A stretch of 64,000 nucleotides of DNA from a virus (Duplodnaviria; Heunggongvirae; Uroviricota; Caudoviricetes), in IMG/VR virus record IMGVR_UViG_2671180676_000004, positions 2,122 to 66,121 of that record. One strand, written 5' to 3'. The position numbers and the translations under genes were made by a program. Numbering within the stretch: position 1 is the stretch's first letter; each line of letters starts with the position of its first letter. The notes under the pieces are model-generated. The model saw only the letters and a list, made by a program, of their open reading frames with translations, was not told the origin of the DNA and made no database searches. Shown here piece by piece: positions 10,588 to 64,000 of the stretch.

Positions 10588-10851
10588 ATGGGATTTAATA
10601 TGAACGAATGGAACATAGCAGCCAAAAGCCAGGAAGAAAGGAATAAAGTTAACGTTGACCTGGCTGCCAGGGGGGTTGCCTACAAAGAGCGATTGAACAT
10701 ACCCGTCATAGCGGAACAGGTAGCCCGTGAGCAACCTGAGAACCTGCGCACCTATTTCATGGAACGGCTACGGCACTACCGGCAGTTAAGCCTCCTGCTG
10801 CCAAAAGGAAACGATCCGGTATATCAGAAAGAAGATATAGCCAAAAAATAA
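10588..10851 (+). CDS. hypothetical small protein
   Basis: 87-aa ORF (alternative ATG at 10600) directly upstream of UmuD'-like gene; no family recognised. Confidence 0.3.
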
Positions 10852-10949
10852 CGCGCCACCAGGCGAGCGCAAAGCATCGCGCTATTGCACACTTCAAGCA
10901 TCTTTAATGTATACTGTATGGATAAACAGTACTCTGAGGTGAAAACGCT

Positions 10950-11339
10950 ATGGGCTTCCCTTCTCCTGCGGCGGATTATGCTGAGAGTCGTATTTCTCTT
11001 GATCAGCAGATAATTAGACATCCTTCAGCGACCTACTTCTTGAGGGCAGCTGATAGTCATCATCGTGAGGGAATATTACAGGGTGCATTGCTGGTGGTCG
11101 ATTCCTCACTTACCCCGGTTGATGGTTCTCTGCTTGTATGCGCTCTGGATGGGGAATATCGCGTAAAAAGATACCGGAAGTATCCACGTCAGCATCTGGA
11201 GGATTTGAGAACCGGTAAGAAGGAAGCATTGCCAAAGGATGACGATGGATGCACGGGCAGCAATGCCGTGTTTGGTGTGATCACTCACATTATCAACGAC
11301 GCAAGAAGTGGCGAGTTTGATGATTGTCCCGTGATGTAG
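10950..11339 (+). CDS. UmuD'-like S24-family peptidase, naturally lacking the N-terminal cleavable segment
   Basis: 129 aa beginning M-GFPSPAADY, the sequence that follows the Cys24-Gly25 self-cleavage site in E. coli UmuD; candidate Ser (ADSH) and Lys (RVKRY) dyad positions retained; no umuC partner adjacent. Confidence 0.6.
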   Translation: MGFPSPAADYAESRISLDQQIIRHPSATYFLRAADSHHREGILQGALLVVDSSLTPVDGSLLVCALDGEYRVKRYRKYPRQHLEDLRTGKKEALPKDDDGCTGSNAVFGVITHIINDARSGEFDDCPVM

Positions 11340-12476: not shown

Positions 12477-12633
12477 CCCGTCTCCTTTATTTTAATTTGC
12501 GCAATTGTCGCCTTGTAGTGTACTCCAGCTACGACATTTAATCATTTATGAGAAATGCTGTTATCACATGGCAGACATAAGGCCATTTTGTTACTATCAA
12601 GCCCCTTTTCACTACAAAGAAGTAATGCCTACT

Positions 12634-16072: not shown

Positions 16073-16189
16073 CGGTTGCAACTCATTGATAATGGCGGTC
16101 ACAATTTGATTCTTTTCTATAAGAATCCGTTGATCGCCACTACTCCCCTTCCATACCCGCAATCACATCCTTAAATATCAATAAGTTAT

Positions 16190-16990
16190 AGTTGTTTATA
16201 CAATCAAGAAAACAACTGAATAACAGATCAACGAAACATCAACGCTTTCACCCGATTTGGTCTAAAAAATTGACGTTTTCACACATCACTGCTTATACCC
16301 GTAATTCTACGCAGCAGACAGCGCCACAGCGTCCAATTTTCACCACAGACGACCCAACACACTACCAACAAAAACACACGCTCAAAATCGTTCCCGTTGC
16401 GTTACATAACCATATAAACAACTTATTTCAGGCATAACAAAACAACTAAATAACACATATGCCATTCCCAAAACAACCAACCTCTTTATGGCAGGCTACC
16501 GAAAAGACCCACCTCTTCTTCCCAGGCTACCGGACAACCAACCTAACTTTCACAGGCAATCCGAAAACATTCATACGCGCGATACCCACGACACGCCATT
16601 ACCCAAACAGCGAAGAAACATCAGAATCACTGAAACCCCAACGAAGCCTGTAACCGCAAGGTTTCTCTCAATCCCAAAAGACACGAAACATAACAATCAC
16701 GGGAAACGCCATTACCCAATACACGAATAACTACAAAAGCCCTTCACGCACTCCAGACAAACAACTCAAACACAATAACGAAAGGAATCGCCCACCTGCC
16801 ATTACTCCATACACGGAGAAGAACAATCACCAAAACGACGAGAACACCCCATAGAAGAACCACCGCAAAACGAACGAAACCATTTACACCGACAGAGAGA
16901 ACAACACGCCCAATTCACCAACAGAAATAGTCGCCGTATAGAACGTTCTGGAAGGAGTGAGCATTAACGCCTATAGAGAGGTTGAGACAG
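16190..16990. repeat. strand-asymmetric A/C-rich non-coding region with degenerate repeats
   Basis: Plus strand almost devoid of G/T runs; recurring units (GCCATTACCCAA..ACA at about 16596, 16709, 16798; CAGGCTACCG at about 16490, 16525); only low-complexity ORFs. Confidence 0.5.
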
Positions 16991-17141
16991 ATAAAACACG
17001 AAGAAAACACAACATGTATAGCGAAGAAGCCAGGTATGTATAAGTGGGGAGGGAAGGAGGGGTGTCGCCTCCTTTTTCGTATTTATTCAACTCCTGATTT
17101 TATCCCCCGTAACACCCCTACGGTCAGCCTTCGGTCCATAC

Positions 17142-19589: not shown

Positions 19590-19625
19590 TTATTAAGGCC
19601 ATCAGCATTGATGGCCTTAAATGAC

Positions 19626-19700
19626 CATCCTGTTTCCCGCAGGCTAAAAACACCAACCTCTTACCTCCAGGCAACCGACAAACCCACCTGTTCCCGTCCG
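19626..19700. repeat. inverted-orientation copies of the GGGAAAC iteron core plus CAGGC-ACCGA element
   Basis: cctGTTTCCCgcagg and cctGTTCCCgtccgg (reverse complement of iteron core); segment AACCAACCTCTT..CAGGC.ACCGA..CCCACCT shared with 16470-16510. Confidence 0.4.
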
Positions 19701-25583: not shown

Positions 25584-26264
25584 ATGGATGTAAAAATCAC
25601 GATTTTGCAGGTTGATGTTGCCAACCTTCGCCCGAATACCTGGAACACCAATTCGGTTGGTGCGCAGAATTTTGAAAAACTGAAAGGTTCTATCGAAAAA
25701 TTGGGCTTTTTTAAGCCAATTTTGGCTCGTGAACTTGAAGATGGATTTTTTGAAATCCTCGGCGGCGAACATCGCTGGCGTGCTGCTATTGAGCAAGGAA
25801 TTTCAACGGTTCCGGTGCTTTCTGTGGGCAAAATTAGCGATGTCGTAGCTAAACAGATGTCACTGGTGGACAACGAGCGATACGGTGAAGACGACCAAAT
25901 CGCATTGCAACGCTTCATTGAAGAAATTCAGTCAGAACTTGACTATCAACTGTCTGAAATCGCCCCGTATGACGACGAAATCTCGATGGTTTTAGCAAAA
26001 GAGGCGGCAATCGACCTTGAAGCACTGGAGGCGTTGTCTCGTGGTAGTGATGAGCCTGTCGATACCGACAAACGAGAGAAAACCGAACGTGTGGGTGCGG
26101 AACATCAGACCATGCGCTTCAAAGTAACTTTCGATGCGTCAGATCGTGTTGCAGAAACCATAAAAAACATCATCAAAGAGCAGGCTATTAACACCGGTAA
26201 TGAAATGGAGAACGCTGGTGAGGCTCTGGTGTGGCTGGTCGACTACTACAAGGAGCGTATGTAA
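25584..26264 (+). CDS. ParB-like nuclease-domain protein 1
   Basis: ATG 25584; ILGGEHRWRAA matches the ParB/Srx arginine-rich box; no obvious HTH domain. Confidence 0.6.
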   Translation: MDVKITILQVDVANLRPNTWNTNSVGAQNFEKLKGSIEKLGFFKPILARELEDGFFEILGGEHRWRAAIEQGISTVPVLSVGKISDVVAKQMSLVDNERYGEDDQIALQRFIEEIQSELDYQLSEIAPYDDEISMVLAKEAAIDLEALEALSRGSDEPVDTDKREKTERVGAEHQTMRFKVTFDASDRVAETIKNIIKEQAINTGNEMENAGEALVWLVDYYKERM

Positions 26265-26932
26265 TGACCAAAAAGTTTGAAATCGTATATCGCGACCCGG
26301 CAGATCTTATTCCCTATGAGATGAATGCCAAAAAGCATGATGAACAGCAGATCCGAGATCTGGCCGCAGCCATTAAAAAGCGCGGATTTGACCAGCCAAT
26401 TACGGTCGATAAGAACGACGTAATTATTACTGGCCACGGCCGCCGTGAGGCTGCAATTTTTGCTGGACTTGAGCGCGTACCGGTTATTGTTCGCGATGAT
26501 CTCAGTGATGACGAGGTTCGTGCGAAGCGCCTTGAAGATAACCGACTTGCCAGCATTGATTACGATGCAATTAAGCTACAGAAAGAGCTTGAGTCGCTTG
26601 TTCTGGACGATATCGAGGTTTTCGGCTTTGAAGAGCGTGAGTTGAATGTTCTCGTTGGCAGTATGACAGAAGAAATGGACACCGACTCGCTAGTTATCGA
26701 TCTTGGCGAAGAAACTAAACGACAGAAGGATGAACACACCGAGATCAGTCGTGAAGTTGCAGCGGAAGAAGTACGTGTTGTCGACGTATTGGGCTTTAAA
26801 ACGCTCCCTGCTGGCTCTGCCATTGTTGTTGGTGATTTGCTTGCCCATATGGAAGAAATGACGGGAGAAAGCGGGGTAGACGCATTTGTGGCATATGCGG
26901 AGAAGATCTCTTCCGGGGAGATGGCTGCATGA
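26264..26932 (+). CDS. ParB-like nuclease-domain protein 2
   Basis: ATG overlaps previous stop (TAATG); ITGHGRREAA ParB-type box; acidic C-terminal half. Confidence 0.6.
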   Translation: MTKKFEIVYRDPADLIPYEMNAKKHDEQQIRDLAAAIKKRGFDQPITVDKNDVIITGHGRREAAIFAGLERVPVIVRDDLSDDEVRAKRLEDNRLASIDYDAIKLQKELESLVLDDIEVFGFEERELNVLVGSMTEEMDTDSLVIDLGEETKRQKDEHTEISREVAAEEVRVVDVLGFKTLPAGSAIVVGDLLAHMEEMTGESGVDAFVAYAEKISSGEMAA

Positions 26933-27594
26933 GCAAATACATCATCAACATATCGTTTCAGACACGCGTAAATAAAACCACGCGCACGTTGGAAATCGCT
27001 GAGTCGTTCGGGCTTGGCCTGGACGAAAAAGAGTGGACGCTTTACGACAATCTGGAGCTGGAAGTGAAGCAGGGCGATGTGGTGTACATCACCGGCCAAT
27101 CCGGTTCCGGCAAATCCGTTGTGCTGCGCGAGTTGCAACGACAGATGAAGGATGAAGGGCTGTCTGTAGCCTCCATCGATGATTTTACCTTCGATAATGA
27201 GGTTAACGTCATCGATCAGTTGGGCAAAACGACCAGTGATGCGCTTGGGTTGTTATCTATGGCTGGTCTGAACGATGCATATCTGTTTGTTCGCAAGCCT
27301 TCTGAAATGTCAGACGGCCAGAAATATCGTCTCAAGATTGCCAAACTGATTGAGTCAGGCGCTAAAGTGTGGGCTGCTGACGAGTTCGGCGCTGTTCTCG
27401 ACCGTGTAACCGCTCAGGTTGTGGCGTCTAACCTCCAGCGTGCCGCGCGAAAGGTTGGTGCGACGGTAATGGTGGCGACGACTCACGAAGACCTGAAGAA
27501 CGCGCTGCGCCCGGATATGCAGATCACCAAGCACTACAAAGAACGCGTGAAGGTGGAATATCACAATGGTAGTCATGATGAGGTCCATTCATGA
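26929..27594 (+). CDS. ABC-type ATPase (nucleotide-binding domain only)
   Basis: 221 aa; Walker A GQSGSGKS, signature-like SDGQKYR, Walker B VWAADEFG, H-loop TTHE; start overlaps previous stop (ATGA). Confidence 0.65.
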   Translation: MSKYIINISFQTRVNKTTRTLEIAESFGLGLDEKEWTLYDNLELEVKQGDVVYITGQSGSGKSVVLRELQRQMKDEGLSVASIDDFTFDNEVNVIDQLGKTTSDALGLLSMAGLNDAYLFVRKPSEMSDGQKYRLKIAKLIESGAKVWAADEFGAVLDRVTAQVVASNLQRAARKVGATVMVATTHEDLKNALRPDMQITKHYKERVKVEYHNGSHDEVHS

Positions 27595-51323: not shown

Positions 51324-54300
51324 ATGTGGTACAGGGAAGGTACTATCACATTTACACAGGGTAGCAATACTCTGGTTGGGGCAGGGACAGCCTGGAACGT
51401 AACAGCTAATGGTGTGTTGCCGGGGATGATCGTCATTGGCCCCGACAATAAGCTGTATGAGATCAAGCGCGTAATAAGCGATACGAATATTGTTCTCTCA
51501 GAACCTTATACCGGCGAAACTCAGTCTGAGGTTCCGTGCCGAATCATTACGACCTATGAAGGCGACTTAACACAGTTTAGCGCGCGCTTTACAGCACTAA
51601 TGTCGCGTATGTCGGCTGATTCCAAGTCTATGCGCAGTTGGTTGACTGCTCTGGATGAGGTGACAATCGAGCGTGAAGACGGTACAGAAGTAACCGTTAA
51701 GCCGCTAATGCAGATCGTCAACGAGCACAACGAAAACGTTGAGTGGTATAAAAATAACACTGACGCGATTGATGCTGCTGGCGACAAAGCTCGTGAGGCG
51801 GCGGCCAGTGCTGCCGCAGCAGCAGAAAGCGCCAATACCGCTGGAGAAAAAGCCTCTCAAGCGTCTCAAAGTGCATCCGCTGCGGCATCCTCACAAAGTG
51901 CCGCAAGTGCGAGTGCAACTGCTGCGAAAAAATCTGAAACGAATGCCGCAGCGTCACAACAATCAGCAGCCACTTCTGCATCCACCGCGACCACGAAAGC
52001 GTCAGAAGCTGCCACCTCAGCCCGGGATGCGGCGGCCTCAAAAGAGGCAGCGAAATCATCAGAAACGAGCGCAGCCTCGAGCGCCAGTAATGCCGCTTCC
52101 TCGGCAACGGCGGCAGGAAATTCCGCGAAGGCGGCAAAAACGTCCGAGACGAACGCCAGGTCTTCTGAAACGGCAGCGGGACAGAGCGCCTCGGCTGCGG
52201 CAGGCTCAAAAACAGCGGCTGCGTCGTCTGCCAGTGCCGCGTCAACAAGTGCCGGGCAGGCCTCAGCCAGTGCCACCGCCGCCGGAAAATCGGCAGAAAG
52301 TGCCGCATCGTCTGCTTCAACAGCCACAACGAAGGCTGGCGAAGCCACTGAACAGGCCAGCGCAGCAGCGAGGTCTGCTTCCGCAGCGAAGACATCCGAA
52401 ACGAACGCGAAAGCGTCGGAAACCCGTGCAGAATCCTCAAAAACGGCAGCCGCATCGTCCGCCAGTTCGGCAGCGTCATCGGCATCATCGGCGTCTGCTT
52501 CAAAAGATGAGGCGACCAGACAAGCGTCCGCAGCGAAGGGCAGCGCCACGACAGCATCCACGAAAGCAACAGAGGCGGCAGGCAGTGCGACGGCAGCATC
52601 TCAGAGCAAAACTGCTGCTGAATCCGCTGCGACCCGTGCGGAAGCTGCTGCTGATCGTGCTGAAGAGATTGCCGGTGCAGTTGCGATGGAAGATGCAAGC
52701 CTTACCACCAAAGGTGTTGTGAAACTTAGCAGTGCTGTCGACAGCACCAGTGAATCTTTAGCCGCGACACCAAAAGCAGTTAAGACCGCATATGATAATG
52801 CTGAAAAACGACTACAGAAGGATCAGAATGGTGCTGATATCCCCGACAAGGGCCGCTTCCTGAATAACATTAATGTTTACAGCAAAGGTGAAGTGGATCA
52901 GAAAAAGGGGATGCGATACGTTGTGGTCAATGCCCCGGCGGGTGTCCAGGAAGGTAAATATTATCCGTTAGTGATAAAAAGGAATGACAGCCATCGGGCA
53001 TCCCGCGTTGTCATTTCAACGCCAAGTCGCACAGCTAATCACAGAATGAATAACTGTGAGTTTAATGGTTTTGTTTGCGCAGGCGGCTGGACGGACCGGG
53101 GTAGCTATGCCTGTGGTATGTTCTGGGCTTATTCATCATCGGAACGCGCTATTCATTCCATTCTGATGAGTAATAAAGGCGATACCGTAGACAGCGTATT
53201 CTATATAGAAGGTGGGGCATTTCCCGTAGAGGTCTTTTTAGAAGAAGGACTTTCTGTTACTGCTCCTGCTTCTGATTATGTTGTTGCTGAAACGACTTAT
53301 AAATTTGGCGCAACTGATCCTTATTCTGAATCAGTTGCGGTAAATTTAATTTTAGATTTTAAACAAGGTAATGGATTTTATAGTTCGTATCCTGTTTTGA
53401 GTAAGTCAGACATTAGCGGTAATAAGGTTTACGCTAATGATGAAGTTATTGTCCGTAGTCAGAATGCGTTAAGGATGATTGCTGGCGATTACGGTGTCAT
53501 ATGGCGAAATGATGGAGCAAATACTTACTTGCTCATGACTGATAAAGGCGACCAGTACGGTGGCTGGAACGGTCTTCGACCATTTGCAGTAAATAACGCA
53601 ACAGGTGAAGTGACGATCAATACACCACTTAATTCTCCAAAAGGGGTTAAGGGGAACTCTGATACAGCTACGAAACTTCAGACTGCAAGAAAAATATCCG
53701 GTGTTCCATTTGATGGCTCTACTGATATCACTTTAACCGCCGCGCATGTTGCCGCTTTCGCAAGAAGAGCAACAGGGTCATATGCTGATGCTGATGGCGG
53801 CGTGCCGTGGAATGCTGAATCTGGTGCTTATAATGTAACTAGAACGGGCGACAGTTATATTCTTGCCAACTTTTATACTGGTGTAGGTAGTTGCCGTACG
53901 CTTCAAATTAAGGCTCACTATAAAAATGGTGGGTTGTTTTATCGTTCATCTCGCGATGGAAGTGGTTTTGAAAGTGGTTGGGAGCAGGTTTACACGACTG
54001 GATTTAGACCTCAGCCGGCTGATATAAACGCACCAACCGCTGCCGCCGGATGGTTAAATAGTGGTAACGGAACAGCATTTACGACTGCTCAGTTTATAAC
54101 GTGGCTAAATAATCAGGGTGCATTTTCAAACAAATATTGGATTGCACGGTGCTCATGGACTTACGCCAACAATAATTATATAGACGACACTGGATGTGGC
54201 AGGATCGATCTATCTGGTTCCGTGATTGAGGTGTTTAGTAATAAGTCAACAAGCCACTACACTATTCGTGTTACAACGACAACAACATCGGGCCATGGTG

Positions 54301-55613
54301 GTGTTAATAATGCGGAGTTTATTTATGTGTACAATGGCAGTGATTACTCGCCAGGCTGGCGTCGTTCTTATAATACTAGAAACAAACCAACAGCTTCTGA
54401 TGTAGGAGCATTATCGCTTTCTGGAGGAGCGTTAACTGGCGGATTAACTGCTGCTGGCGAGATTATTTCAAAATCGGCGAATGGTCTGCGCATTGCCTAC
54501 GGAAACTACGGATTCTTTATCCGAAACGATGGTTCAAGCACATACTTCATGTTGACCGATTCGGGTAACAGCCTGGGAACCTATAATAGTTTAAGGCCGC
54601 TTATCATTAACAATGCCAATGGTGCTGTTAGGATCGGTAATGGACTCAATGTTACTGGCGGCATCAATGGTAGTTTGGACGGTAATGCTTCAACAGCTAC
54701 GAAGTTGCAAACAGCGAGAAACATCAATGGTGTTAAGTTTGATGGTTCAGGCGATATCAATATTAATACATTGGTATCTCGTGGCCGAGTTACGGCGTTA
54801 AGCGGCTCTACTCAAGGCACTGCTGGCATTCAAATGTATGAGGCGTACAACAATAGCTACCCGACCATGTATGGCAACGTATTGCACATGAAAGGTGCGA
54901 GTGCTGCTGGTGAGGGAGAGTTGCTTATTGGCTGGAGTGGTACGAGCGGTGCACATGCGCCAGTTTTCATTCGCTCACGAAGAGATAACACAGGTGCGGC
55001 ATGGTCAGCGTGGGCGCAGGTATATACCGCTAAGGATTCAATCCCTGGTGTGAATACAACTGGTAATCAGAACACTACTGGTAATGCCGCAACCGCCACA
55101 AAATTGCAGACAGCAAGGAAAATTGCTGGTGTGGCATTTGATGGCTCTGCCGATATAACTTTGACTGCGGCTAACCTTAATGCTTACACGAAAACAGAGG
55201 TAACAAACCTTCTAAGTTCCTATGTGAAGAGCAGTGCTCTTCCAAGCATGACTGTGCGAACTTCCTCTGTTTCAGGTGGGGATATGGGCATGAGCTTGTC
55301 CGCATTCATTAGCCACCTAAAATCAAATGGGGCGTTTAGCAAAAGTTATTGGATTGGCTTTGGCGATGCTATGGGATTCAATGCTGGCAGTATCAACAAT
55401 ATAACGGGATTTGGTGCTGTAGAATTAGCAGAATCTATAATCGAAGTTTTTAATCTACCTAACGGTGATTATACAATTCGTTTAACAACGTCACATAAAG
55501 CTGACTACGGTGGAGTTACAAACGCAATCCTCGTTTATCACTACCGTAGTAATAGAAGTCCGTCAGGTCAATGGCTGAAATTTGCAGGTACTGTTGGGGC
55601 AACAAGTAACTGA
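51324..55613 (+). CDS. side tail fibre protein
   Basis: 1429 aa; 300-aa Ala/Ser-rich low-complexity region; three copies of ATKLQTARxIxGVxFDGSxDI motif in C-terminal half. Confidence 0.8.
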   Translation: MWYREGTITFTQGSNTLVGAGTAWNVTANGVLPGMIVIGPDNKLYEIKRVISDTNIVLSEPYTGETQSEVPCRIITTYEGDLTQFSARFTALMSRMSADSKSMRSWLTALDEVTIEREDGTEVTVKPLMQIVNEHNENVEWYKNNTDAIDAAGDKAREAAASAAAAAESANTAGEKASQASQSASAAASSQSAASASATAAKKSETNAAASQQSAATSASTATTKASEAATSARDAAASKEAAKSSETSAASSASNAASSATAAGNSAKAAKTSETNARSSETAAGQSASAAAGSKTAAASSASAASTSAGQASASATAAGKSAESAASSASTATTKAGEATEQASAAARSASAAKTSETNAKASETRAESSKTAAASSASSAASSASSASASKDEATRQASAAKGSATTASTKATEAAGSATAASQSKTAAESAATRAEAAADRAEEIAGAVAMEDASLTTKGVVKLSSAVDSTSESLAATPKAVKTAYDNAEKRLQKDQNGADIPDKGRFLNNINVYSKGEVDQKKGMRYVVVNAPAGVQEGKYYPLVIKRNDSHRASRVVISTPSRTANHRMNNCEFNGFVCAGGWTDRGSYACGMFWAYSSSERAIHSILMSNKGDTVDSVFYIEGGAFPVEVFLEEGLSVTAPASDYVVAETTYKFGATDPYSESVAVNLILDFKQGNGFYSSYPVLSKSDISGNKVYANDEVIVRSQNALRMIAGDYGVIWRNDGANTYLLMTDKGDQYGGWNGLRPFAVNNATGEVTINTPLNSPKGVKGNSDTATKLQTARKISGVPFDGSTDITLTAAHVAAFARRATGSYADADGGVPWNAESGAYNVTRTGDSYILANFYTGVGSCRTLQIKAHYKNGGLFYRSSRDGSGFESGWEQVYTTGFRPQPADINAPTAAAGWLNSGNGTAFTTAQFITWLNNQGAFSNKYWIARCSWTYANNNYIDDTGCGRIDLSGSVIEVFSNKSTSHYTIRVTTTTTSGHGGVNNAEFIYVYNGSDYSPGWRRSYNTRNKPTASDVGALSLSGGALTGGLTAAGEIISKSANGLRIAYGNYGFFIRNDGSSTYFMLTDSGNSLGTYNSLRPLIINNANGAVRIGNGLNVTGGINGSLDGNASTATKLQTARNINGVKFDGSGDININTLVSRGRVTALSGSTQGTAGIQMYEAYNNSYPTMYGNVLHMKGASAAGEGELLIGWSGTSGAHAPVFIRSRRDNTGAAWSAWAQVYTAKDSIPGVNTTGNQNTTGNAATATKLQTARKIAGVAFDGSADITLTAANLNAYTKTEVTNLLSSYVKSSALPSMTVRTSSVSGGDMGMSLSAFISHLKSNGAFSKSYWIGFGDAMGFNAGSINNITGFGAVELAESIIEVFNLPNGDYTIRLTTSHKADYGGVTNAILVYHYRSNRSPSGQWLKFAGTVGATSN
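51780..52700. repeat. Ala/Ser-rich low-complexity coding region of side tail fibre
   Basis: recurrent KTSETNA / SASAAA units; generates spurious long ORFs in other frames and on the opposite strand. Confidence 0.7.
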
Positions 55614-56846: not shown

Positions 56847-57098
56847 ATGCTAGGCAGCCTGATGACAAAGCTAAAAGTTGCTTTGATTACGCTGGCTGCC
56901 GTTCTTTTCGTTCTTGTCGGCGCTTACACGATGGGCGGGAATGCGGCGCGACGAGCAATGGAAGAGAAGGCAAAACAGGAAGACAGAAAACGACTTCAAA
57001 GCACAGTGGAAGTGGTGAATGAGACGAGCAATAAAATACGTCAGAAAGATGCTTCTGCCGTTCATCGTGAGTTGTATGATAAGTGGGTGCGTCATTAA
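56847..57098 (+). CDS. i-spanin (Rz-like)
   Basis: 83 aa, N-terminal transmembrane helix then charged helical region; overlaps lipoprotein gene in another frame. Confidence 0.5.
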   Translation: MLGSLMTKLKVALITLAAVLFVLVGAYTMGGNAARRAMEEKAKQEDRKRLQSTVEVVNETSNKIRQKDASAVHRELYDKWVRH

Positions 57099-57234
57099 AC
57101 CACAAACCGCCAGCGTATTGTTCTGCGATGGAGCTGGGCCTATCTATATCAGCAATAATGATGTGATGACCGAAGAAACCGAACGCCAAATCCTTTTTCA
57201 CAATACGATGGGAGAGAGAGTTTGCGGTTGGTGA
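57019..57234 (+). CDS. o-spanin (Rz1-like lipoprotein)
   Basis: 71 aa in a different frame overlapping Rz-like gene; signal peptide with lipobox ISGC. Confidence 0.5.
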   Translation: MRRAIKYVRKMLLPFIVSCMISGCVIKPQTASVLFCDGAGPIYISNNDVMTEETERQILFHNTMGERVCGW

Positions 57235-57265
57235 TGCGAAGTTCCCCTCACTTGAGGGGAGTACA

Positions 57266-57787
57266 TTATTCTTCGAACAATTTTTCGATAGATTTTGTAG
57301 GATAGAACAAAGAACGCTCGTTGTTACCAACCAGCTGGATAAAGCCTAAACTTTTATAAAACGCCTTGGCTTTGTCATTTAACGCCTCAACGAAAAGTCC
57401 ATGAATGCCTACAGCAAGAGATGCATTGTACACAACGCGCATTGCATGTGTTACAAGCATTGAGCCAAATCCTTGACCTTGAAGGGACTTGTCCAAAGCC
57501 AGCCTACCCAAAGTAACACTTGGAACATTCCGATAAGGTACCTTCTTTTGCTGGCTTCTTGAAGGTAAGGACTCCTTTTCAAAGCAGCTGCCTGACAAAG
57601 TGTAATACCCTAACACTTTTGGTCTGTCTTCTTTCGTGAAAAGCACATAAGCGCGAAGAATTTTTCCCTCATGCTGCCTTTTTAAGTGGTTGGTTAAAAA
57701 GGCATTTAGTGATTCTTCACCGCAATCAAAACCATTCAAATCATAATCTTTCTCTCCAGAGAAAATTTCTATCTTTATATTATCCAC
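57266..57787 (-). CDS. GNAT-family toxin (TacT/AtaT-type aminoacyl-tRNA acetyltransferase)
   Basis: 173 aa; GNAT motif QGQGFGSMLV; immediately downstream of DUF1778-type antitoxin gene. Confidence 0.75.
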   Translation of the reverse strand: MDNIKIEIFSGEKDYDLNGFDCGEESLNAFLTNHLKRQHEGKILRAYVLFTKEDRPKVLGYYTLSGSCFEKESLPSRSQQKKVPYRNVPSVTLGRLALDKSLQGQGFGSMLVTHAMRVVYNASLAVGIHGLFVEALNDKAKAFYKSLGFIQLVGNNERSLFYPTKSIEKLFEE

Positions 57788-57794
57788 GAGTAAA

Positions 57795-58103
57795 CTACTC
57801 CATGCTTTTCAGACGATCAGCAGCTCGTTTCAGCTTGTCGTTCGGTGCCGGAGGATTGCTTATAGCGTCCATAACCAGATTCCAGGATTCTTCATTCAGA
57901 ACTAGTCTACGGTGTTGCTCTATAACTTTCACGGCACGTTCAGATGCACTGCTAACCATAAACTGAGTAATGCTCTGGTTAGACATTGCGGCAGCTTCCT
58001 CGATGATGCTTTTATCGTCATCGGTTAATCTCAAATCGATGCGCTGCTTTTTTAGTGCTGACATGTATTCCTCCTGATGGCCGTGATGTAGGAAGGCCAT
58101 CAA
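57795..58103 (-). CDS. DUF1778-type (TacA-like) antitoxin
   Basis: About 90-100 aa (real start may be internal ATG at 58064); RHH-like N-terminus KKQRIDLRLTDDDK; classic partner of GNAT toxins. Confidence 0.7.
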   Translation of the reverse strand: MMAFLHHGHQEEYMSALKKQRIDLRLTDDDKSIIEEAAAMSNQSITQFMVSSASERAVKVIEQHRRLVLNEESWNLVMDAISNPPAPNDKLKRAADRLKSME

Positions 58104-58333
58104 TCTCCTCTGTTCAAACTGAGTTTTCGACTCAAAAATTACTTTAAAAGGCTATAGCCCATTACGTGTGCATTATCAAATTGTGTACGGCATATCACCG
58201 TACTTGTAATATAGAGGTCATTGTTACTTTTTTCAACAGACAAATACAAGCTATGATTGCCAATTGTTAATCACAACCTACCATTTAACCTTTACACCGC
58301 AGCCGTAGGCATTTAGGCTATATCACATATAAG

Positions 58334-58348
58334 AAAACAAGTTGTTTC
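58334..58348. promoter_or_regulatory. palindromic operator-like site
   Basis: AAAACAA-G-TTGTTTC upstream of parA ATG 58383. Confidence 0.5.
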
Positions 58349-58382
58349 AGACGATAATTATATACGCAAAGGGAACTCTCCA

Positions 58383-59051
58383 ATGACCAAGATCTTTGTG
58401 GTTGGCGGCACAAAGGGCGGGCCTGGCAAATCCACCGTTGCCCAGCAAATTGCCGTTTGCCTGAAAGTCAAAAAGAAGAAGAAGGTTTATATTACCGATA
58501 TAGATATTCAGCGCACGACAACGAGCTGGTGTGAAGACCGTCGACAGAACGAAGACCTTGAGCTGATTCCTTTTGCATACGTTCAGGATGACATCATTAA
58601 GCACCTAAAATCGCTTCAGGGTAGAGCTGAGTTTGTAGTGGTAGATGCTGGTGGCTTCGACTCCGAAATTCAGCGACAAGCGATGCTGATGGCTGACGTT
58701 ATCATTATCCCGCTGCGTCCTAAGCGTCGTGATTTGAAATCTTTACGTGACATCGATCCTATTATCGACAATGTTCGCAATGTAAACGATAAAGTGAAGG
58801 TCCGCGCGGTCATGAACCAGTGCCCGGCTTTGCCATCACAAGTGTCTCGCATTCTGGCGGCTAAAGAGATTGTCGAGACGTTTGGCATCGAGTCTGCGCC
58901 AGTCAATCTATATAACCGCAACGTCTACGATGATGCGGAAGAGTCTGGTCGTTCTATCTTCGAAATGACCGGTAGCGAGCGCGACAAAAAGGCGGAAGCC
59001 GAGTTTGAAGAATTTGTAGATTATCTGTTGAGTCTGGAGGAAGAAGAATAA
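58383..59051 (+). CDS. parA: ParA-family partition ATPase (small, type Ib)
   Basis: 222 aa; deviant Walker A GGTKGGPGKST; palindrome 58334-58348 upstream. Confidence 0.8.
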   Translation: MTKIFVVGGTKGGPGKSTVAQQIAVCLKVKKKKKVYITDIDIQRTTTSWCEDRRQNEDLELIPFAYVQDDIIKHLKSLQGRAEFVVVDAGGFDSEIQRQAMLMADVIIIPLRPKRRDLKSLRDIDPIIDNVRNVNDKVKVRAVMNQCPALPSQVSRILAAKEIVETFGIESAPVNLYNRNVYDDAEESGRSIFEMTGSERDKKAEAEFEEFVDYLLSLEEEE

Positions 59052-59410
59052 TGTCCATGAAAATGGGTGACCTAGCAAAGCGCAAAGAGCCTGATGCACC
59101 GGCTAAGAACACAACTCCTTTGCGCCAACCAGTCAGACCACAAGGACGCCCGACTCGTGGCAAAGAGAAAATTAAAAGCCGCACCATGTCACTGGAAGAC
59201 GAATACTTCGAGCTTCTGGAAATGATGAAGTTTATCCCTCGTTTCGAGAAGTTCACCCGCTCTGATGTGATTCGTGCTGCTATTTTCCATCTGGCAGAGA
59301 AGTCGCCGCAGGAAATCGAGGATATCGTGAAACTTAACGAGGCGATCACTGCTGCCGACGTCACGATGCGTACCGATGAAATCAAACGCGAGTTGATGAA
59401 GAAAGGTTAA
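59051..59410 (+). CDS. small partition partner protein (ParG/RHH-like, tentative)
   Basis: 119 aa, basic disordered N-terminus, start overlaps parA stop; terminator 59418-59442 downstream. Confidence 0.45.
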   Translation: MSMKMGDLAKRKEPDAPAKNTTPLRQPVRPQGRPTRGKEKIKSRTMSLEDEYFELLEMMKFIPRFEKFTRSDVIRAAIFHLAEKSPQEIEDIVKLNEAITAADVTMRTDEIKRELMKKG

Positions 59411-59417
59411 TTTTATT

Positions 59418-59442
59418 GAGGTGCTGCTTGGCACCTCTTTCT
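59418..59442 (+). terminator. intrinsic terminator after partition operon
   Basis: GAGGTGC-tgcttg-GCACCTC followed by TTTCT. Confidence 0.5.
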
Positions 59443-59454
59443 ATAGGTTCCCTA

Positions 59455-60174
59455 ATGCTCTACAAATATATTGGAAGTGAAGATTCGCAAAAAGTGTTAC
59501 GTAACCTCAAACGGTTTGTAGAGGACGGCACTATCTCTGCTAGCGCACCTTCTTCATTCAACGACCCATCAGAGTTCAAAGTTTCGATAACGATGGGAGG
59601 TACAGAAGTGGAGCGCCGGAAACACTTTGAAGACAATGGATGTAAGGATTTTTCCTTTGAAGACTGGGATGCTGTAGCTCCTGAAGCTGCAAAATCGTTG
59701 GCTGTGGATTTGCGGAAAGAATCATTAGGGGCTTTTGGTGTGGTGTGCTTGTCACCAAACGAAGATAACATCTTGATGTGGTCACATTACTCAGTGTCGC
59801 ATAAAGGTTTCTGCATAGGCTTTGATGATGATTTTGTTACCTCTATTGAGGGGTATCACAGCTTTGATAATGTGAAATATATACCTTCTGTTCCCGTGTT
59901 CGATGAAGTTACAGATGAGTTTAAGGTACTTTTTGATAAGCTCTTTTTCTACAAGCACGAATGCTGGAAATATGAGGAAGAACAAAGGGTTATTACTAAA
60001 AAAATAGGCGCTCAGGCATTTGATAAGAAATATATTAGAGAGATCATTCTTGGACATAACGTTTCTCCTGAAGTAGAAGAATATGCCCGGACACAGCTAG
60101 ACACGAGCATCGAGGTTTACAAAATGAGTACACCTGATGATGGTTATCTTCTTGTCAAAGAAAAGCTGAAGTAG
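59455..60174 (+). CDS. hypothetical protein (low-GC cargo gene 1)
   Basis: ATG 59455 after terminator hairpin; motifs FNDPSEF and MWSHYSVSHKGFCIGF; family not confidently recognised (possibly DUF2971-like). Confidence 0.4.
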   Translation: MLYKYIGSEDSQKVLRNLKRFVEDGTISASAPSSFNDPSEFKVSITMGGTEVERRKHFEDNGCKDFSFEDWDAVAPEAAKSLAVDLRKESLGAFGVVCLSPNEDNILMWSHYSVSHKGFCIGFDDDFVTSIEGYHSFDNVKYIPSVPVFDEVTDEFKVLFDKLFFYKHECWKYEEEQRVITKKIGAQAFDKKYIREIILGHNVSPEVEEYARTQLDTSIEVYKMSTPDDGYLLVKEKLK

Positions 60175-60240
60175 CTCCAGACTTTCCTCAAATGATTATG
60201 TTGGGCGCTTTTCTTATTGAACTGGTTAGTGAGGCTAATA

Positions 60241-61413
60241 ATGGATTTGTTCTCAACCAAAATAGCAAAAAACAAGCTGCACGAATCTTTTAAACAGATT
60301 TATCAAGATAATACATATGCTCCAGTAAGAGAAGTGATACAGTCGTGGGGGCGTGGGTTACTGGAGCGTAGCGGTGAGCAGACTAAATTCGTTAAAGAGT
60401 TTCAGACAACCTTCAATTCCGCCTTATGGGAATTGTATCTGAACGAAATGTTTATTCGTCTCGATTATTCTGTCGACTACACAAAAGACAGTCCCGATTT
60501 CTGTGTTACTACACCGTCAGGCTACCAGTTTAACGTCGAAGCTGTGATATCAGATCGGCCACATAATCCACCTGCAGGTGCTCTTTTTAGCGAATTAAAA
60601 TTCAAACATCAATCAACGCTAAAATTAATCGGAAAAATCAAAGACAAACATGATCTTTTTACAGGAGTTAATGGCAAAAAATTCCCGTACTCTACGATGT
60701 CTCATGTAGTTAATAAGCCGTTTGTTCTGGCGCTTGCACCCTTTGACTCCGATTTATCATTGTCTCAAAATAACACAATCATCAATCGAGTGTTGTTTGG
60801 CATTGAGGAACCTACCACCAGAAATTTGGTGACTGGCAGCCAAACTAAAGTTACCTCAATCAAAAAGAATGAAGACGTTGAAATTCCATTAGGTATATTT
60901 ACTAACGACTCATATAAAGAAATAAGTGCGGTTATTTTCTCCACCACCGGCACTTTTGGAAAAGCCGTGGTTCAAAGCGGTATCGGTAGATATGTAAGGT
61001 CAACACGATATCGAGCCATTGATGTGAATGATTTCATCGCCAATGAAGGGATGAAAAACGAGGGAAAGCACACACAAAGGATAGGACCTGATCATTTCAT
61101 CACTACATATCGGCATTTTTTAAATAACGAAGTCACTGGTGCGGATATTGTAGTTTGTCATTCCACTGCTCATGAAGAGACGCACTTTGACGGCCTTCAT
61201 ATTTACTACAATCCTTTTGCGACAGTGCCACTGGACAGAAATATTTTCTTCCCCCCAGAGATAACTCATAATTTTTACGATATGGAAAAAGAACAGTCTG
61301 TTCAGAATCATCCTGATGGAGCGCTGGTATCTAGACAGGTTTTTGAACCAACTAGAGCACATTTTAGGTATATCATGAAACATTGGTTTCCAGGCTTTCT
61401 AAAAGATGTTTAA
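60241..61413 (+). CDS. hypothetical protein (low-GC cargo gene 2)
   Basis: ATG 60241 with GAGG upstream; 390 aa; followed by long hairpin 61439-61492 plus T-run. Confidence 0.4.
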   Translation: MDLFSTKIAKNKLHESFKQIYQDNTYAPVREVIQSWGRGLLERSGEQTKFVKEFQTTFNSALWELYLNEMFIRLDYSVDYTKDSPDFCVTTPSGYQFNVEAVISDRPHNPPAGALFSELKFKHQSTLKLIGKIKDKHDLFTGVNGKKFPYSTMSHVVNKPFVLALAPFDSDLSLSQNNTIINRVLFGIEEPTTRNLVTGSQTKVTSIKKNEDVEIPLGIFTNDSYKEISAVIFSTTGTFGKAVVQSGIGRYVRSTRYRAIDVNDFIANEGMKNEGKHTQRIGPDHFITTYRHFLNNEVTGADIVVCHSTAHEETHFDGLHIYYNPFATVPLDRNIFFPPEITHNFYDMEKEQSVQNHPDGALVSRQVFEPTRAHFRYIMKHWFPGFLKDV

Positions 61414-63764: not shown

Positions 63765-64000
63765 TGATTCATTGGTGAAACAACTTTTCTTTTGCCAAAC
63801 CACAAAAGAAAACACATGAGCCTTTATGTTATATCAACATTTAGGTTGGTCACAATATTGCCTGTTAAAAGTGGAATTATCGTGAGCGAGCTGAAAGAGC
63901 TAATTACCGAATTAGATTTTGAACAATGGTTGGACACTGAAGGTATCATTTATCGGCGCGGAGGCGTGAGTGCTCGCGGTTGTCACGAACGGTGCAATAG

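What the first reader, a model, noticed from the sequence alone, without database searches (positions are those of the whole stretch)
57266..59410. Plasmid-type maintenance block (GNAT toxin with DUF1778-type antitoxin, ParA with small partner) next to the lysis genes
A TacAT/AtaRT-type toxin-antitoxin pair and a type Ib-like partition pair sit between the lysis cassette and the replication helicase. Together with the iteron arrays and the absence of an integrase in about 49 kb of element sequence, this argues that the phage is maintained as an extrachromosomal phage-plasmid, or derives from one. That makes the adjacency to metG and apbC more surprising.
Basis: partly seen in the sequence, partly recalled or inferred. 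Interest (0 to 1): 0.5.

Follow-up and report, generated by a model that had tools for sequence, protein, structure and literature searches.

The report
Phage-plasmid partition and addiction genes
These four genes are the plasmid-inheritance kit (a toxin-antitoxin pair plus a DNA-partition pair) of a well-known type of virus that lives in E. coli as a free circular plasmid, so the finding is correct but ordinary.

Summary
They hold a GNAT toxin (57266-57787, -), a DUF1778/TacA antitoxin (57795-58064, -), a small Walker-type ParA (58383-59051, +) and an overlapping 119-aa partner (59051-59410, +).

The toxin is 69% and the antitoxin 80% identical to the solved AtaT/AtaR and KacT/KacA proteins, and the residues known to matter are kept.

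All 64 kb are collinear and more than 99.9% identical with a closed 111,466-bp circular E. coli plasmid, pUTAK-6-1. That plasmid belongs to the SSU5/pHCM2 phage-plasmid group, so the phage-plasmid reading is supported.

Three side arguments need correcting:
- metG-apbC is cargo carried by about 200 such plasmids, not a chromosomal junction.
- The real iteron replicon (RepB plus 15 iterons) and a tyrosine recombinase lie outside the window.
- The toxin-antitoxin pair sits in a variable slot; the par module, found in 774 plasmids, begins at 58273.

Modest new points:
- The partner belongs to a narrow, unannotated family, probably ribbon-helix-helix.
- The 70 bp upstream of parA are more conserved than any coding stretch of the par module.
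- parA carries one copy of a 17-bp palindrome found at about 17 promoters of the element.

No centromere repeat array was found. Overall: already known, low interest.

The parts
57241..57262 (.). G+C-rich hairpin (GTTCCCCTCACTTGAGGGGAGT) between the end of Rz1 and the 3' end of the toxin gene. Likely a terminator separating the convergent lysis and toxin-antitoxin transcripts.
   Evidence: Terminator-like site. Position read. Function is inferred.
57266..57787 (-). GNAT acetyltransferase toxin, an AtaT/KacT orthologue (173 aa).
   Evidence: Pfam GNAT families above cut-off. PDB 6gts/6ajm (AtaT) at E 2e-78 and 5xun/5zgn (KacT) at 1e-74. 69% identical to AtaT; Tyr144 and the QGQGFG motif are present. 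PHROG 1758 acetyltransferase. 95.4% identical to Cyrano CYRAN_26, which is transcribed 35-fold above background in the lysogen.
57795..58064 (-). DUF1778/TacA-type ribbon-helix-helix antitoxin, an AtaR/KacA orthologue (89 aa from the ATG at 58064). The listed ORF runs up to 58103.
   Evidence: Pfam TacA1 at 8.6e-26. KacA 5zgn_A at E 7e-42 with 80% identity, aligned 1-87. Arg8 and Arg12, needed for KacA operator binding (PMC6698736), are present in MSALKKQRIDLR. RefSeq CDS of 270 nt. 100% identical to Cyrano CYRAN_27.
58185..58205 (.). Palindrome TGTACGG-N7-CCGTACT just downstream of the toxin-antitoxin promoter's -10. Candidate antitoxin operator.
   Evidence: Read. The arms are kept while the spacer varies in four toxin-antitoxin loci, including Cronobacter and K. 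michiganensis, where the rest of the intergenic region does not align. KacA/AtaR bind a palindrome spanning the transcription start (PMC6698736). Binding here is inferred.
58208..58236 (-). Sigma-70-like promoter of the antitoxin-toxin operon (TTGAAA, 17 nt, TATATT).
   Evidence: Best promoter-like site in the region, 10 of 12 matches. A consensus match only.
58273..58332 (+). Left end of the conserved par module. From 58283 this is a non-coding block (...TTTAACCTTTACACCGCAGCCGTAGGCATTTAGGCTATATCACATATAA) that is nearly invariant across genera. Candidate parA promoter, partner operator and centromere.
   Evidence: Homology in 726 of 774 plasmids starts at query positions 169-179, which is window 58272-58282. 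87-97% of columns are invariant in 58283-58342 across 7 elements from Escherichia, Salmonella, Klebsiella, Cronobacter and Enterobacter, against 47-83% inside the two genes. The block is absent from the two elements whose partner is only about 50% identical. No second copy elsewhere in the plasmid. Function is inferred.
58333..58349 (+). One copy of the element-wide 17-bp palindrome GAAAACAAnTTGTTTTC, 34 nt before the parA start. Likely a promoter-proximal operator.
   Evidence: 14 copies in the window against 0.67 expected; 17 in the whole plasmid. The shared architecture is a -10-like hexamer, then the palindrome, then a ribosome-binding site and gene start. Kept upstream of parA in all nine relatives examined. 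The binding protein is unknown.
58383..59051 (+). Small Walker-type ParA ATPase (222 aa), ParF-like, with no N-terminal DNA-binding domain.
   Evidence: The deviant Walker A motif TKGGPGKST and the VVVDAGG motif are read. 99.5% identical to Cyrano CYRAN_28. Present in 774 PLSDB plasmids, 740 of them predicted non-mobilizable.
59051..59410 (+). ParA partner (119 aa; RefSeq starts it at 59057, giving 117 aa). Probable ribbon-helix-helix centromere-binding adaptor. It has a conserved N-terminal MGDLAKR motif, a variable linker and a basic patch.
   Evidence: Always directly follows parA, with an overlapping TAATG. Narrow family: 25 hits among 5.8 billion proteins and 18 representatives among 1.84 billion. 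PHROG 5111, 'unknown function'. Conserved IKSRTMSxEDE ... TRSDVIRAA pattern. Weak ribbon-helix-helix hits: NCBIfam aCcr1 at 2e-4, and Pfam RHH_1 in 2 of 16 members at 0.005. Predicted helices at 48-59 and 70-82 after an extended segment. Identical to Cyrano CYRAN_29, which is transcribed 9-fold above background in the lysogen.
59418..59437 (+). Hairpin followed by a T-run (GAGGTGCTGCTTGGCACCTC TTTCT). Likely terminator of the parA-partner operon and right end of the par module.
   Evidence: Conservation drops to 7% invariant columns after 59423. Relatives carry different sequence here.

Best explanation
The block is the inheritance module of an SSU5/pHCM2-type phage-plasmid, a siphovirus whose prophage is a low-copy circular plasmid of about 111 kb. 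It is made of two independent cassettes transcribed divergently from a 318-bp intergenic region.

(1) The par operon (58273 to about 59440). ParA is a small ParF-like Walker ATPase. In the established type I partition mechanism, such a protein binds the nucleoid as an ATP dimer. The 119-aa partner is proposed to bind, through a ribbon-helix-helix dimer, to the nearly invariant leader just upstream of parA. It would then stimulate ParA's ATPase with its conserved N-terminal MGDLAKR tail. Plasmid copies would follow the retreating ParA and be placed on both sides of the division plane. The same binding would autoregulate the operon. The operon also carries one copy of the element-wide 17-bp palindromic operator.

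(2) An AtaRT/KacAT-type toxin-antitoxin pair (57266-58064), inserted in a variable cargo slot between the lysis cassette and par. The antitoxin-toxin complex represses its own promoter at the GTACGG-N7-CCGTAC palindrome. In cells that lose the plasmid, the labile antitoxin decays. The GNAT toxin then acetylates charged tRNA and stops translation, so plasmid-free segregants do not outgrow carriers.

Shown here: gene identities, conserved key residues, module boundaries, conservation of the non-coding sites, and the plasmid context. Shown in the literature for a near-identical relative: plasmid state, copy number, virion production, and transcription of these genes in the lysogen. Inferred: the DNA sites bound, ATPase stimulation, and post-segregational killing.
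For: Replicon
- Collinear with, and more than 99.9% identical to, a closed circular plasmid.
- Member of the SSU5 group.
- A RepB initiator with 15 iterons lies elsewhere on the same plasmid.
- Cyrano has a copy number of 5.5 and inducible virions. Its toxin, antitoxin and partner genes are transcribed in the lysogen. Its proteins are 95-100% identical to these.

Toxin-antitoxin pair
- Strong matches to the solved AtaT/AtaR and KacT/KacA proteins, with Tyr144, Arg8 and Arg12 kept.
- The operator-like palindrome is kept, with a varying spacer, in four loci.

Partition pair
- ParA family matches, with the closest solved structure being ParF.
- Invariant parA-partner synteny in 774 plasmids, 740 of them predicted non-mobilizable.
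- The partner's conserved N-terminal motif and ribbon-helix-helix-like core.
- The upstream leader is more conserved than any coding stretch of the par module.
- A terminator follows the partner gene.
Against: - No stabilisation or killing experiment exists for this par or this toxin-antitoxin pair in the searchable literature.
- ParA scores below the NCBIfam ParA_partition cut-off, 115.7 against 180 bits.
- The partner's ribbon-helix-helix fold is not demonstrated. The profile comparison with ParG was null. Two monomer models gave no strand and no structural match.
- No array of direct repeats typical of type Ib centromeres was found near par or elsewhere.
- The toxin-antitoxin pair is missing from SSU5 itself and from many relatives, so it is not essential for maintenance.
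- It lies beside defence-type genes, so a defence role is equally possible.
Confidence: 0.85

Rival explanations
1. The toxin-antitoxin pair is not mainly an addiction module. It is one more defence or stress cargo gene set in a hotspot, for example stopping translation when another phage infects. In that case only parA and its partner serve inheritance.
For: - The slot between Rz1 and 58273 holds unrelated genes in SSU5, Klebsiella pJN2-26 and Enterobacter.
- Only 143 of 685 par-bearing plasmids carry the contiguous toxin-antitoxin plus par block.
- Right after the par terminator lie matches to the PADLOC defence candidates PDC-S31 and PD-T7-5, the latter at E 4.5e-139.
- The element also carries a type I restriction system and an AbiGi-type gene.
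Against: - PADLOC has no model matching this toxin or antitoxin.
- GNAT/DUF1778 pairs recur in the same slot in distant relatives (Cronobacter, K. michiganensis) right next to par, as expected if linkage to the maintenance region is selected.
- The two roles are not mutually exclusive.
Confidence: 0.3
2. The 119-aa partner is a KorB- or omega-like global regulator. Its binding sites would be the roughly 17 palindromes GAAAACAAnTTGTTTTC scattered over the element, making the centromere distributed and coupling partition to control of the phage's early genes.
For: - The palindrome is the only upstream element shared by both partner clades. Their presumed DNA-reading residues (IKSRTMS, TRSDVIRAA) are identical.
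- The palindrome is strongly over-represented and sits next to promoters.
- No classical repeat array was found.
- There is no palindrome in the control region of the helix-turn-helix regulator beside the recombinase, so that protein is not an obvious binder.
Against: - pMT1 of Yersinia pestis has no small ParA and no partner (tblastn found nothing). It uses a P1-type ParAB, yet keeps the palindrome in promoter-like contexts (7 hits).
- The clade-1-specific, nearly invariant block at 58283-58332 is a better candidate for a partner-specific site.
Confidence: 0.1
3. The small protein after parA is a RelE/ParE-type toxin, as annotated in phage Cyrano. ParA would then have no adjacent partner.
For: [quoted passage not shown]
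Against: - No RelE/ParE match in Pfam, NCBIfam, PHROGs or PDB.
- No adjacent antitoxin gene.
- The gene is translationally coupled to parA in every relative.
- Its layout, a conserved N-terminal tail, a linker and a ribbon-helix-helix-like core, is that of type Ib adaptors.
Confidence: 0.03
4. The element is an integrated prophage, and metG/apbC mark the chromosomal junction. The maintenance genes would then be relics.
For: metG and apbC are adjacent chromosomal genes in every E. coli genome. No integrase is annotated in the parts of the window whose annotation I saw.
Against: - Sequence to the left of metG/apbC in the window is also plasmid sequence: type I restriction system, TerB protein and others.
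- The metG-apbC copy is only about 90% identical to the chromosomal one. It occurs on 208 plasmids of 100-120 kb.
- All 64 kb are collinear with a circular plasmid record.
Confidence: 0.02

Closest known systems
SSU5/pHCM2-group phage-plasmids (Salmonella phage SSU5, S. Typhi pHCM2, E. coli pECOH89, E. coli LF82 phage-plasmid Cyrano)
   Same: Same genome and gene order: tail fibre, lysis cassette, slot, parA and partner, DUF2971 gene, DnaB-like helicase, primase. The region is 97.5% identical to Cyrano and 82.6% to SSU5. The plasmid lifestyle and virion production are documented.
   Different: SSU5 has two unrelated genes where the toxin-antitoxin pair sits. This lineage also carries metG-apbC, a type I restriction system and PD-T7-5.
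AtaRT (E. coli O157:H7) and KacAT (Klebsiella pneumoniae) GNAT/ribbon-helix-helix type II toxin-antitoxin systems; more distantly TacAT of Salmonella
   Same: The toxin is 69% identical to AtaT and the antitoxin 80% identical to KacA. The catalytic Tyr, the AcCoA motif and the operator-binding Arg8/Arg12 are kept. The antitoxin gene comes first, and a palindrome lies at the promoter.
   Different: It is carried on a phage-plasmid next to the partition operon, whereas the studied examples are chromosomal. The target tRNA, toxicity and operator binding were not tested here.
Type Ib partition systems: ParF-ParG-parH of TP228; delta-omega of pSM19035
   Same: A small Walker ParA without a DNA-binding domain, closest in structure to ParF. 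It is followed by a small protein with a flexible basic N-terminus and a probable ribbon-helix-helix core. The control region lies upstream of parA.
   Different: The partner shows no detectable sequence similarity to ParG and belongs to a narrow family of its own. There is no array of short repeats, only a unique conserved block of about 60 bp plus one copy of a genome-wide palindrome. ParA is below the curated ParA_partition cut-off.
Phage P1 maintenance functions (parABS, phd-doc, RepA with iterons, Cre-lox)
   Same: The same functional set for a plasmid prophage: active partition, a toxin-antitoxin pair, an iteron-controlled initiator and a tyrosine recombinase. P1's set is described in PMC7969092.
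   Different: The protein families are unrelated: P1 uses type Ia ParA/ParB and Phd/Doc. Here the par operon and the replicon are about 33 kb apart.
pMT1 of Yersinia pestis (SSU5 supergroup)
   Same: Shares the structural genes, the ParB_N pair, the recombinase-regulator pair and the 17-bp palindrome.
   Different: It lacks the lysis cassette, the small ParA and partner, and this toxin-antitoxin pair. It uses a type Ia ParAB and a Phd/RelE-type pair instead.

Membership tests
GNAT/DUF1778 (TacAT-AtaRT-KacAT) type II toxin-antitoxin | Toxin has a GNAT fold with the acetyl-CoA binding motif | tested here: met
   Pfam Acetyltransf_1/7/10 above cut-off. Full-length alignment to AtaT and KacT structures at E 2e-78. 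QGQGFG at residues 103-108.
GNAT/DUF1778 (TacAT-AtaRT-KacAT) type II toxin-antitoxin | Catalytic tyrosine (Tyr144 in AtaT, Tyr145 in KacT) | tested here: met
   Tyr144 in KAFYKSLG aligns with the AtaT tyrosine. The KacT Y145F variant is used in PMC6698736.
GNAT/DUF1778 (TacAT-AtaRT-KacAT) type II toxin-antitoxin | Antitoxin of the DUF1778/TacA family with an N-terminal ribbon-helix-helix and DNA-contacting Arg8/Arg12 | tested here: met
   Pfam TacA1 at 8.6e-26. KacA at E 7e-42. R8 and R12 are present; their role is given in PMC6698736.
GNAT/DUF1778 (TacAT-AtaRT-KacAT) type II toxin-antitoxin | Two-gene operon with the antitoxin first and the genes nearly abutting | tested here: met
   Antitoxin stop at 57795 and toxin start at 57787, a 7-nt gap on the same strand.
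GNAT/DUF1778 (TacAT-AtaRT-KacAT) type II toxin-antitoxin | Autoregulation at a palindromic operator spanning the transcription start | tested here: inconclusive
   GTACGG-N7-CCGTAC lies just after the predicted -10. Its arms are conserved in four loci. No binding or transcription-start data.
GNAT/DUF1778 (TacAT-AtaRT-KacAT) type II toxin-antitoxin | Toxin acetylates aminoacyl-tRNA and is neutralised by the antitoxin | not testable with these tools
   Needs expression and tRNA acetylation assays.
Type Ib (ParF/ParG-like) plasmid partition system | ParA with the deviant Walker A motif (KGGxxK[ST]) and the signature lysine | tested here: met
   GGTKGGPGKST at residues 8-18. ParA/MipZ/CbiA family matches.
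Type Ib (ParF/ParG-like) plasmid partition system | ParA is small (about 200-230 aa) and lacks the N-terminal helix-turn-helix of type Ia | tested here: met
   222 aa. The P-loop starts at residue 8. The closest structure is ParF, 206 aa.
Type Ib (ParF/ParG-like) plasmid partition system | Membership of the curated NCBIfam ParA_partition equivalog | tested here: not met
   115.7 bits against a cut-off of 180. It is a ParA-superfamily member outside that curated model. Some RefSeq records name it MipZ.
Type Ib (ParF/ParG-like) plasmid partition system | Small centromere-binding partner encoded directly downstream and co-transcribed | tested here: met
   Overlapping TAATG. Synteny is invariant in all relatives examined, and a terminator follows the partner gene. 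Whether it binds a centromere is not shown.
Type Ib (ParF/ParG-like) plasmid partition system | Partner is a ribbon-helix-helix dimer | tested here: inconclusive
Type Ib (ParF/ParG-like) plasmid partition system | Centromere made of an array of short repeats next to the operon | tested here: not met
   No repeat array was found in 57000-60300 or elsewhere. There is only a unique, nearly invariant block of about 60 bp plus one genome-wide palindrome.
Type Ib (ParF/ParG-like) plasmid partition system | Stabilises an unstable replicon and exerts incompatibility | not testable with these tools
   No experiment was found in the searchable literature.
SSU5/pHCM2-group phage-plasmid | Collinear with circular plasmids of 100-120 kb that carry siphovirus structural and lysis genes | tested here: met
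SSU5/pHCM2-group phage-plasmid | Plasmid replication initiator with iterons on the same molecule | tested here: met
   RepB (Pfam Rep3_N 5e-9) flanked by 15 iterons in pUTAK-6-1, outside the window.
SSU5/pHCM2-group phage-plasmid | Produces infectious or inducible virions while being kept as a plasmid | not testable with these tools
   Reported for Cyrano and SSU5. Not known for this particular element.

The most novel reading that the evidence does not exclude
The uncharacterised 119-aa partner is the founding member of a new family of ParA adaptors that also acts as a global regulator, like KorB of RK2 or omega of pSM19035. It would bind the roughly 17 copies of the palindrome GAAAACAAnTTGTTTTC that sit at the transcription starts of parA, the replicative helicase and many early genes. 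Plasmid partition and silencing of the phage's early genes would then be run by one protein, and the centromere would be distributed over the genome.
Probability: 0.1. Interest if true: 0.5.

Novelty: already known. Interest (0 to 1): 0.15.

Why it matters
SSU5-type phage-plasmids occur in several per cent of E. coli, Shigella, Salmonella and Klebsiella isolates. They carry resistance and defence genes, so how they are inherited is of practical interest. That they carry a ParA and toxin-antitoxin genes is already in the literature and in public annotation, so this finding adds no new biology.

Small useful corrections and leads:
- The protein after parA is the likely partition adaptor. It is not a RelE/ParE toxin or a plain 'hypothetical protein'.
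- The par module has a sharply defined left boundary and a nearly invariant leader that can be tested directly as the centromere.
- parA shares an operator-like palindrome with the early and replication genes.
- metG-apbC on these plasmids is cargo and should not be read as a chromosome junction.

Tried and rejected
- Sequence links of the partner. Tried phmmer and a profile against PDB, Pfam and NCBIfam, Pfam on 16 family members, and hhalign against ParG (my recalled ParG sequence was verified as 1p94). Only weak ribbon-helix-helix hints came out.
- Centromere repeats. Tried direct and inverted repeat search, Tandem Repeats Finder and a k-mer self-comparison of the intergenic region against the whole plasmid. 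Only the genome-wide palindrome recurs.
- WATCAC heptads. I noticed three WATCAC-like heptads, as in omega sites, in the intergenic region. Two lie outside the conserved par leader, in sequence that does not align with relatives, so I set them aside as probable chance.
- The palindrome as an RNA hairpin. Rejected because changes in one arm are not compensated in the other.
- The palindrome as the operator of the helix-turn-helix regulator beside the recombinase. No copy lies in that gene's own control region, so this stays open.
- A functional link between the AtaT-type toxin and the plasmid-borne metG. AtaT's reported target is Met-tRNAfMet; this is from my own knowledge and was not tested. 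The two are not co-inherited: E. coli plasmids exist with metG but no toxin-antitoxin pair in this slot (NZ_CP062852.1). Cronobacter and K. michiganensis relatives have a DUF1778 antitoxin gene in this slot, and those genera are not among the metG-carrying plasmids. No paper links them.
- Rfam scan of the whole window: no match.
- tRNA scan of the window: none found.
- Literature searches for experiments on the SSU5/pHCM2 par or its regulation found none. One 2026 preprint on phage-plasmid heteroresistance could not be opened.


Full report
WHAT IS THERE.

On the minus strand lies a two-gene operon. The antitoxin (57795-58064, 89 aa from the ATG at 58064) matches Pfam TacA1/DUF1778 at 8.6e-26. 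The toxin (57266-57787, 173 aa) matches the GNAT families above their cut-offs.

Both are close relatives of toxin-antitoxin pairs with solved structures.
- The toxin hits AtaT (6gts, 6ajm) at E 2e-78 and KacT (5xun, 5zgn) at 1e-74. The antitoxin hits KacA at 7e-42 and AtaR at 1e-40.
- Identity is 69% to AtaT and 80% to KacA.
- The toxin keeps the catalytic tyrosine (Tyr144) and the QGQGFG motif. The antitoxin keeps Arg8 and Arg12, which are required for KacA to bind its operator (PMC6698736).

On the plus strand lie parA (58383-59051, 222 aa) and an overlapping 119-aa gene (59051-59410).
- ParA carries the deviant Walker A motif TKGGPGKST.
- It matches MipZ, AAA_31 and CbiA in Pfam, NCBIfam ParA_partition (1.9e-33, below that model's cut-off) and PHROG 164 'ParA-like partition protein'.
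- The closest solved structure is ParF of plasmid TP228.

WHAT THE REPLICON IS. The maintenance block matches pUTAK-6-1 perfectly. pUTAK-6-1 (NZ_CP157149.1) is a closed circular 111,466-bp plasmid of a bovine E. coli.

The first 24 kb of the window also match it, and anchoring shows the whole window is collinear with it. In the portions compared base by base, the differences are six substitutions, one base in a G-run and the last 20 nt.

The phage relatives are Escherichia phages Cyrano (97.5% identity), CMS-2020a and PhiR41_1, and Salmonella phage SSU5 (82.6%). This is the SSU5/pHCM2 group of phage-plasmids, the largest such group in enterobacteria (PMC7969092).

For Cyrano, PMC9928086 reports the following:
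- a plasmid copy number of 5.5 per cell;
- virions of siphovirus shape, induced 39-fold by ciprofloxacin;
- transcription in the lysogen of the toxin (35-fold above background), the antitoxin (60-fold) and the small protein after parA (9-fold).

The four Cyrano proteins are 95.4, 100, 99.5 and 100% identical to those here. The plasmid replicon of pUTAK-6-1 lies outside the window. It is a RepB initiator (Pfam Rep3_N) flanked by 15 copies of the iteron GTATGCTGTCAGCGGT.

- metG and apbC (11376-14667) are full-length genes inside the element. Plasmid genes lie on both sides of them: a type I restriction system, a TerB protein, a pol III theta homologue and an S24 peptidase.
- This copy is only about 90% identical to the chromosomal metG-apbC present in all 5426 complete E. 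coli genomes. It occurs at 224 plasmid places in those genomes and on 208 PLSDB plasmids, almost all predicted non-mobilizable. It is therefore long-standing cargo, not a junction.
- No integrase is annotated in the parts of the window whose annotation I saw. The element does have a tyrosine recombinase with an adjacent helix-turn-helix regulator about 11 kb beyond the right end. A role in multimer resolution, as with Cre in P1, is an inference.
- The repeats inside the window at 16.4-16.9 kb are weak (three units of about 31 nt at 65-74% identity). They are not the plasmid's iterons.

MODULAR ANATOMY. The par module occurs in 774 PLSDB plasmids: Klebsiella 345, Escherichia 241, Enterobacter 92, Salmonella 49 and others. 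Of these, 740 are predicted non-mobilizable. In 726 of them the homology starts within a few bases of window 58273.

To the left of that point is a variable slot.
- SSU5 has two unrelated plus-strand genes there, Klebsiella pJN2-26 a minus-strand gene, and Enterobacter another gene.
- E. coli, Cronobacter and K. michiganensis elements have DUF1778 antitoxin genes there.
- Only 143 of 685 plasmids carry the contiguous toxin-antitoxin plus par block.

To the right, conservation collapses after a hairpin with a T-run at 59418-59437. This lineage then has two defence-type genes, matching PADLOC PDC-S31 (59416-60174) and PD-T7-5 (60217-61413, E 4.5e-139). So par is a conserved island between two cargo hotspots.

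CONTROL REGIONS.
- For the toxin-antitoxin operon, the best promoter-like site is TTGAAA, 17 nt, TATATT at 58236-58208 on the minus strand.
- Immediately downstream lies TGTACGG-CATATCA-CCGTACT (58185-58205).
- The same arms, with a different spacer, occur in a second E. coli element. They also occur in the Cronobacter and K. michiganensis loci, where the rest of the intergenic region cannot be aligned.
- This matches the published behaviour of KacA and AtaR, which bind a palindrome spanning the transcription start. I take it as the operator; that is inferred.
- For par, the stretch 58283-58342 is the most conserved part of the whole module. There, 87-97% of columns are invariant across seven elements from Escherichia, Salmonella, Klebsiella, Cronobacter and Enterobacter, against 47-83% within the two genes.
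- The left part of this stretch, to about 58332, is unique in the plasmid. It is missing from two Klebsiella elements whose partner is only about 50% identical.
- The right part, 58333-58349, is one copy of the palindrome GAAAACAAnTTGTTTTC.

THE PALINDROME.
- It occurs 14 times in the window against 0.67 expected and 17 times in the whole plasmid.
- At the 15 sites aligned it lies 8-12 nt after a -10-like hexamer and, at most of them, 10-35 nt before a gene start on the same strand. These genes include parA, the DnaB-like helicase and the TerB gene.
- Changes in one arm are not compensated in the other. It therefore behaves as a protein-binding DNA site, not an RNA hairpin.
- pMT1 of Yersinia pestis keeps it (7 hits). 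pMT1 has neither the small ParA nor the partner, and uses a P1-type ParAB. That argues the binding protein is some shared regulator and not the partner.
- No copy lies in the control region of the helix-turn-helix regulator beside the recombinase, so the binding protein remains unknown.

THE PARTNER.
- It has no significant Pfam or PDB match, and PHROGs lists its family (5111) as of unknown function.
- The family is narrow: 25 hits among 5.8 billion proteins and 18 cluster representatives among 1.84 billion.
- Alignments show three conserved parts:
  - an N-terminal MGDLAKR motif, followed by a variable linker that modelled at low confidence;
  - a basic RPQGRPTRGK patch;
  - a core, IKSRTMSxEDE(Y/F), about 15 residues, then (T/S)RSD(V/I)xRAA. 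This looks like the strand, helix 1 and helix 2 of ribbon-helix-helix proteins.
- Support for that fold is weak: NCBIfam aCcr1, an archaeal cell-cycle regulator family that I believe from memory to be ribbon-helix-helix (2e-4, below cut-off), Pfam RHH_1 in 2 of 16 members, and predicted helices at 48-59 and 70-82.
- Profile comparison with ParG and structure searches gave nothing.
- The Cyrano annotation 'RelE/ParE toxin' has no support. The RefSeq SSU5 gene model is truncated at its 5' end; the full 119-aa frame with the same TAATG overlap is present.

HOW IT MOST LIKELY WORKS. Partition follows the type I (Walker ATPase) scheme. That is established for ParF-ParG and similar systems and is inferred here.
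- ATP-bound ParA dimers coat the nucleoid.
- The partner, bound to the conserved leader upstream of parA, touches ParA with its N-terminal tail and triggers ATP hydrolysis.
- Plasmid copies then move along the resulting ParA gradient and end up in both daughter cells.
- With about 5 copies per cell, random segregation would give frequent loss, so active partition is expected to matter.

The toxin-antitoxin pair adds a second layer.
- The antitoxin-toxin complex represses its own promoter.
- After plasmid loss the antitoxin is degraded, and the GNAT toxin acetylates aminoacyl-tRNA and blocks translation. This mechanism is stated for this family in PMC6698736.
- A defence role is an equally open possibility, given the neighbourhood.

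VERDICT. The finding is accurate and its main interpretation is right. However, it describes a known maintenance region of a known phage-plasmid group that is already annotated in public records. The only mildly new items are:
- the likely identity of the partner as a partition adaptor of a family of its own;
- the nearly invariant leader, which is a testable centromere candidate;
- the presence of the element-wide palindrome at the parA promoter.

No classical centromere repeat array was found, and this remains the main gap.

Noticed in passing
window 501, 1230, 14750, 14801, 17608, 18092, 18995, 19759, 22674, 23912, 28874, 28899, 58333, 62361 (17-nt sites): A 17-bp palindrome, GAAAACAAnTTGTTTTC, occurs 14 times in the window against 0.67 expected, and 17 times in the whole plasmid. 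At the promoter-proximal copies it sits just after a -10-like hexamer and mostly 10-35 nt before a gene start on the same strand; these genes include parA and the DnaB-like helicase. It looks like the operator set of an unidentified global regulator. It is kept in pMT1. I found no paper describing it.
   Followed up: partly
window 11376-14667: Full-length apbC and metG, arranged divergently as on the chromosome, are carried by the phage-plasmid. They are about 90% identical to the E. coli chromosomal copy and occur on 208 PLSDB plasmids. Hosts therefore have two methionyl-tRNA synthetase genes. No paper in the library mentions this, and no linkage with the AtaT-type toxin was found.
   Followed up: partly
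window 59416-60174 and 60217-61413: Directly after the par terminator lie two defence-type genes. A DUF2971 protein matches PADLOC candidate PDC-S31 (E 4e-38), and a 398-aa protein matches PD-T7-5 (E 4.5e-139). The content of this slot differs between relatives.
   Followed up: partly
window 3425-9461: A complete type I restriction-modification system (hsdR, hsdS, hsdM) lies on the minus strand, according to the RefSeq annotation of the matching plasmid.
   Followed up: no
window about 16100-17000 and 19616-19674: A non-coding stretch with extreme strand composition (GC skew -0.35, AT skew +0.31). It contains degenerate 29-31-nt repeats, such as CCAAAACAACCAACCTC...CAGGCTA. It is not the RepB iteron set and has no Rfam match. 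Function unknown; a second or lytic origin is a guess.
   Followed up: partly
window 25584-27594: Two consecutive ParB_N-domain proteins and an ABC-type ATPase lie next to a DEAD-box helicase. They are conserved in pMT1, which partitions with a different ParAB, so they are probably not the partner of the small ParA.
   Followed up: partly
L002 (SSU5) 5157-5516; L003 (Cyrano) 4953-5312: There are public annotation problems for the ParA partner. The RefSeq SSU5 CDS starts 69 nt too late and loses the conserved N-terminal motif. The Cyrano record calls the protein a RelE/ParE toxin without support.
   Followed up: yes
window 51324-55613: A 1429-aa tail-fibre ORF has a long Ala/Ser-rich segment (roughly residues 140-470) in a local G+C peak of 57%. 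In the pUTAK-6-1 RefSeq annotation it is split into a 975-aa CDS plus an opposite-strand 'hypothetical protein'. Cyrano annotates a long fibre.
   Followed up: no
window 10600-11339: A pol III theta homologue and an S24 (UmuD/LexA-type) peptidase without a DNA-binding domain sit just before apbC. This may be relevant to the SOS-inducibility reported for Cyrano.
   Followed up: no
window about 44500 and 63981-64000: The window differs from NZ_CP157149.1 by one base in a G-run at about 44500 and by 13 mismatches in its last 20 nt, in addition to six substitutions in 1-29100. It therefore comes from a near-identical but not identical record.
   Followed up: yes
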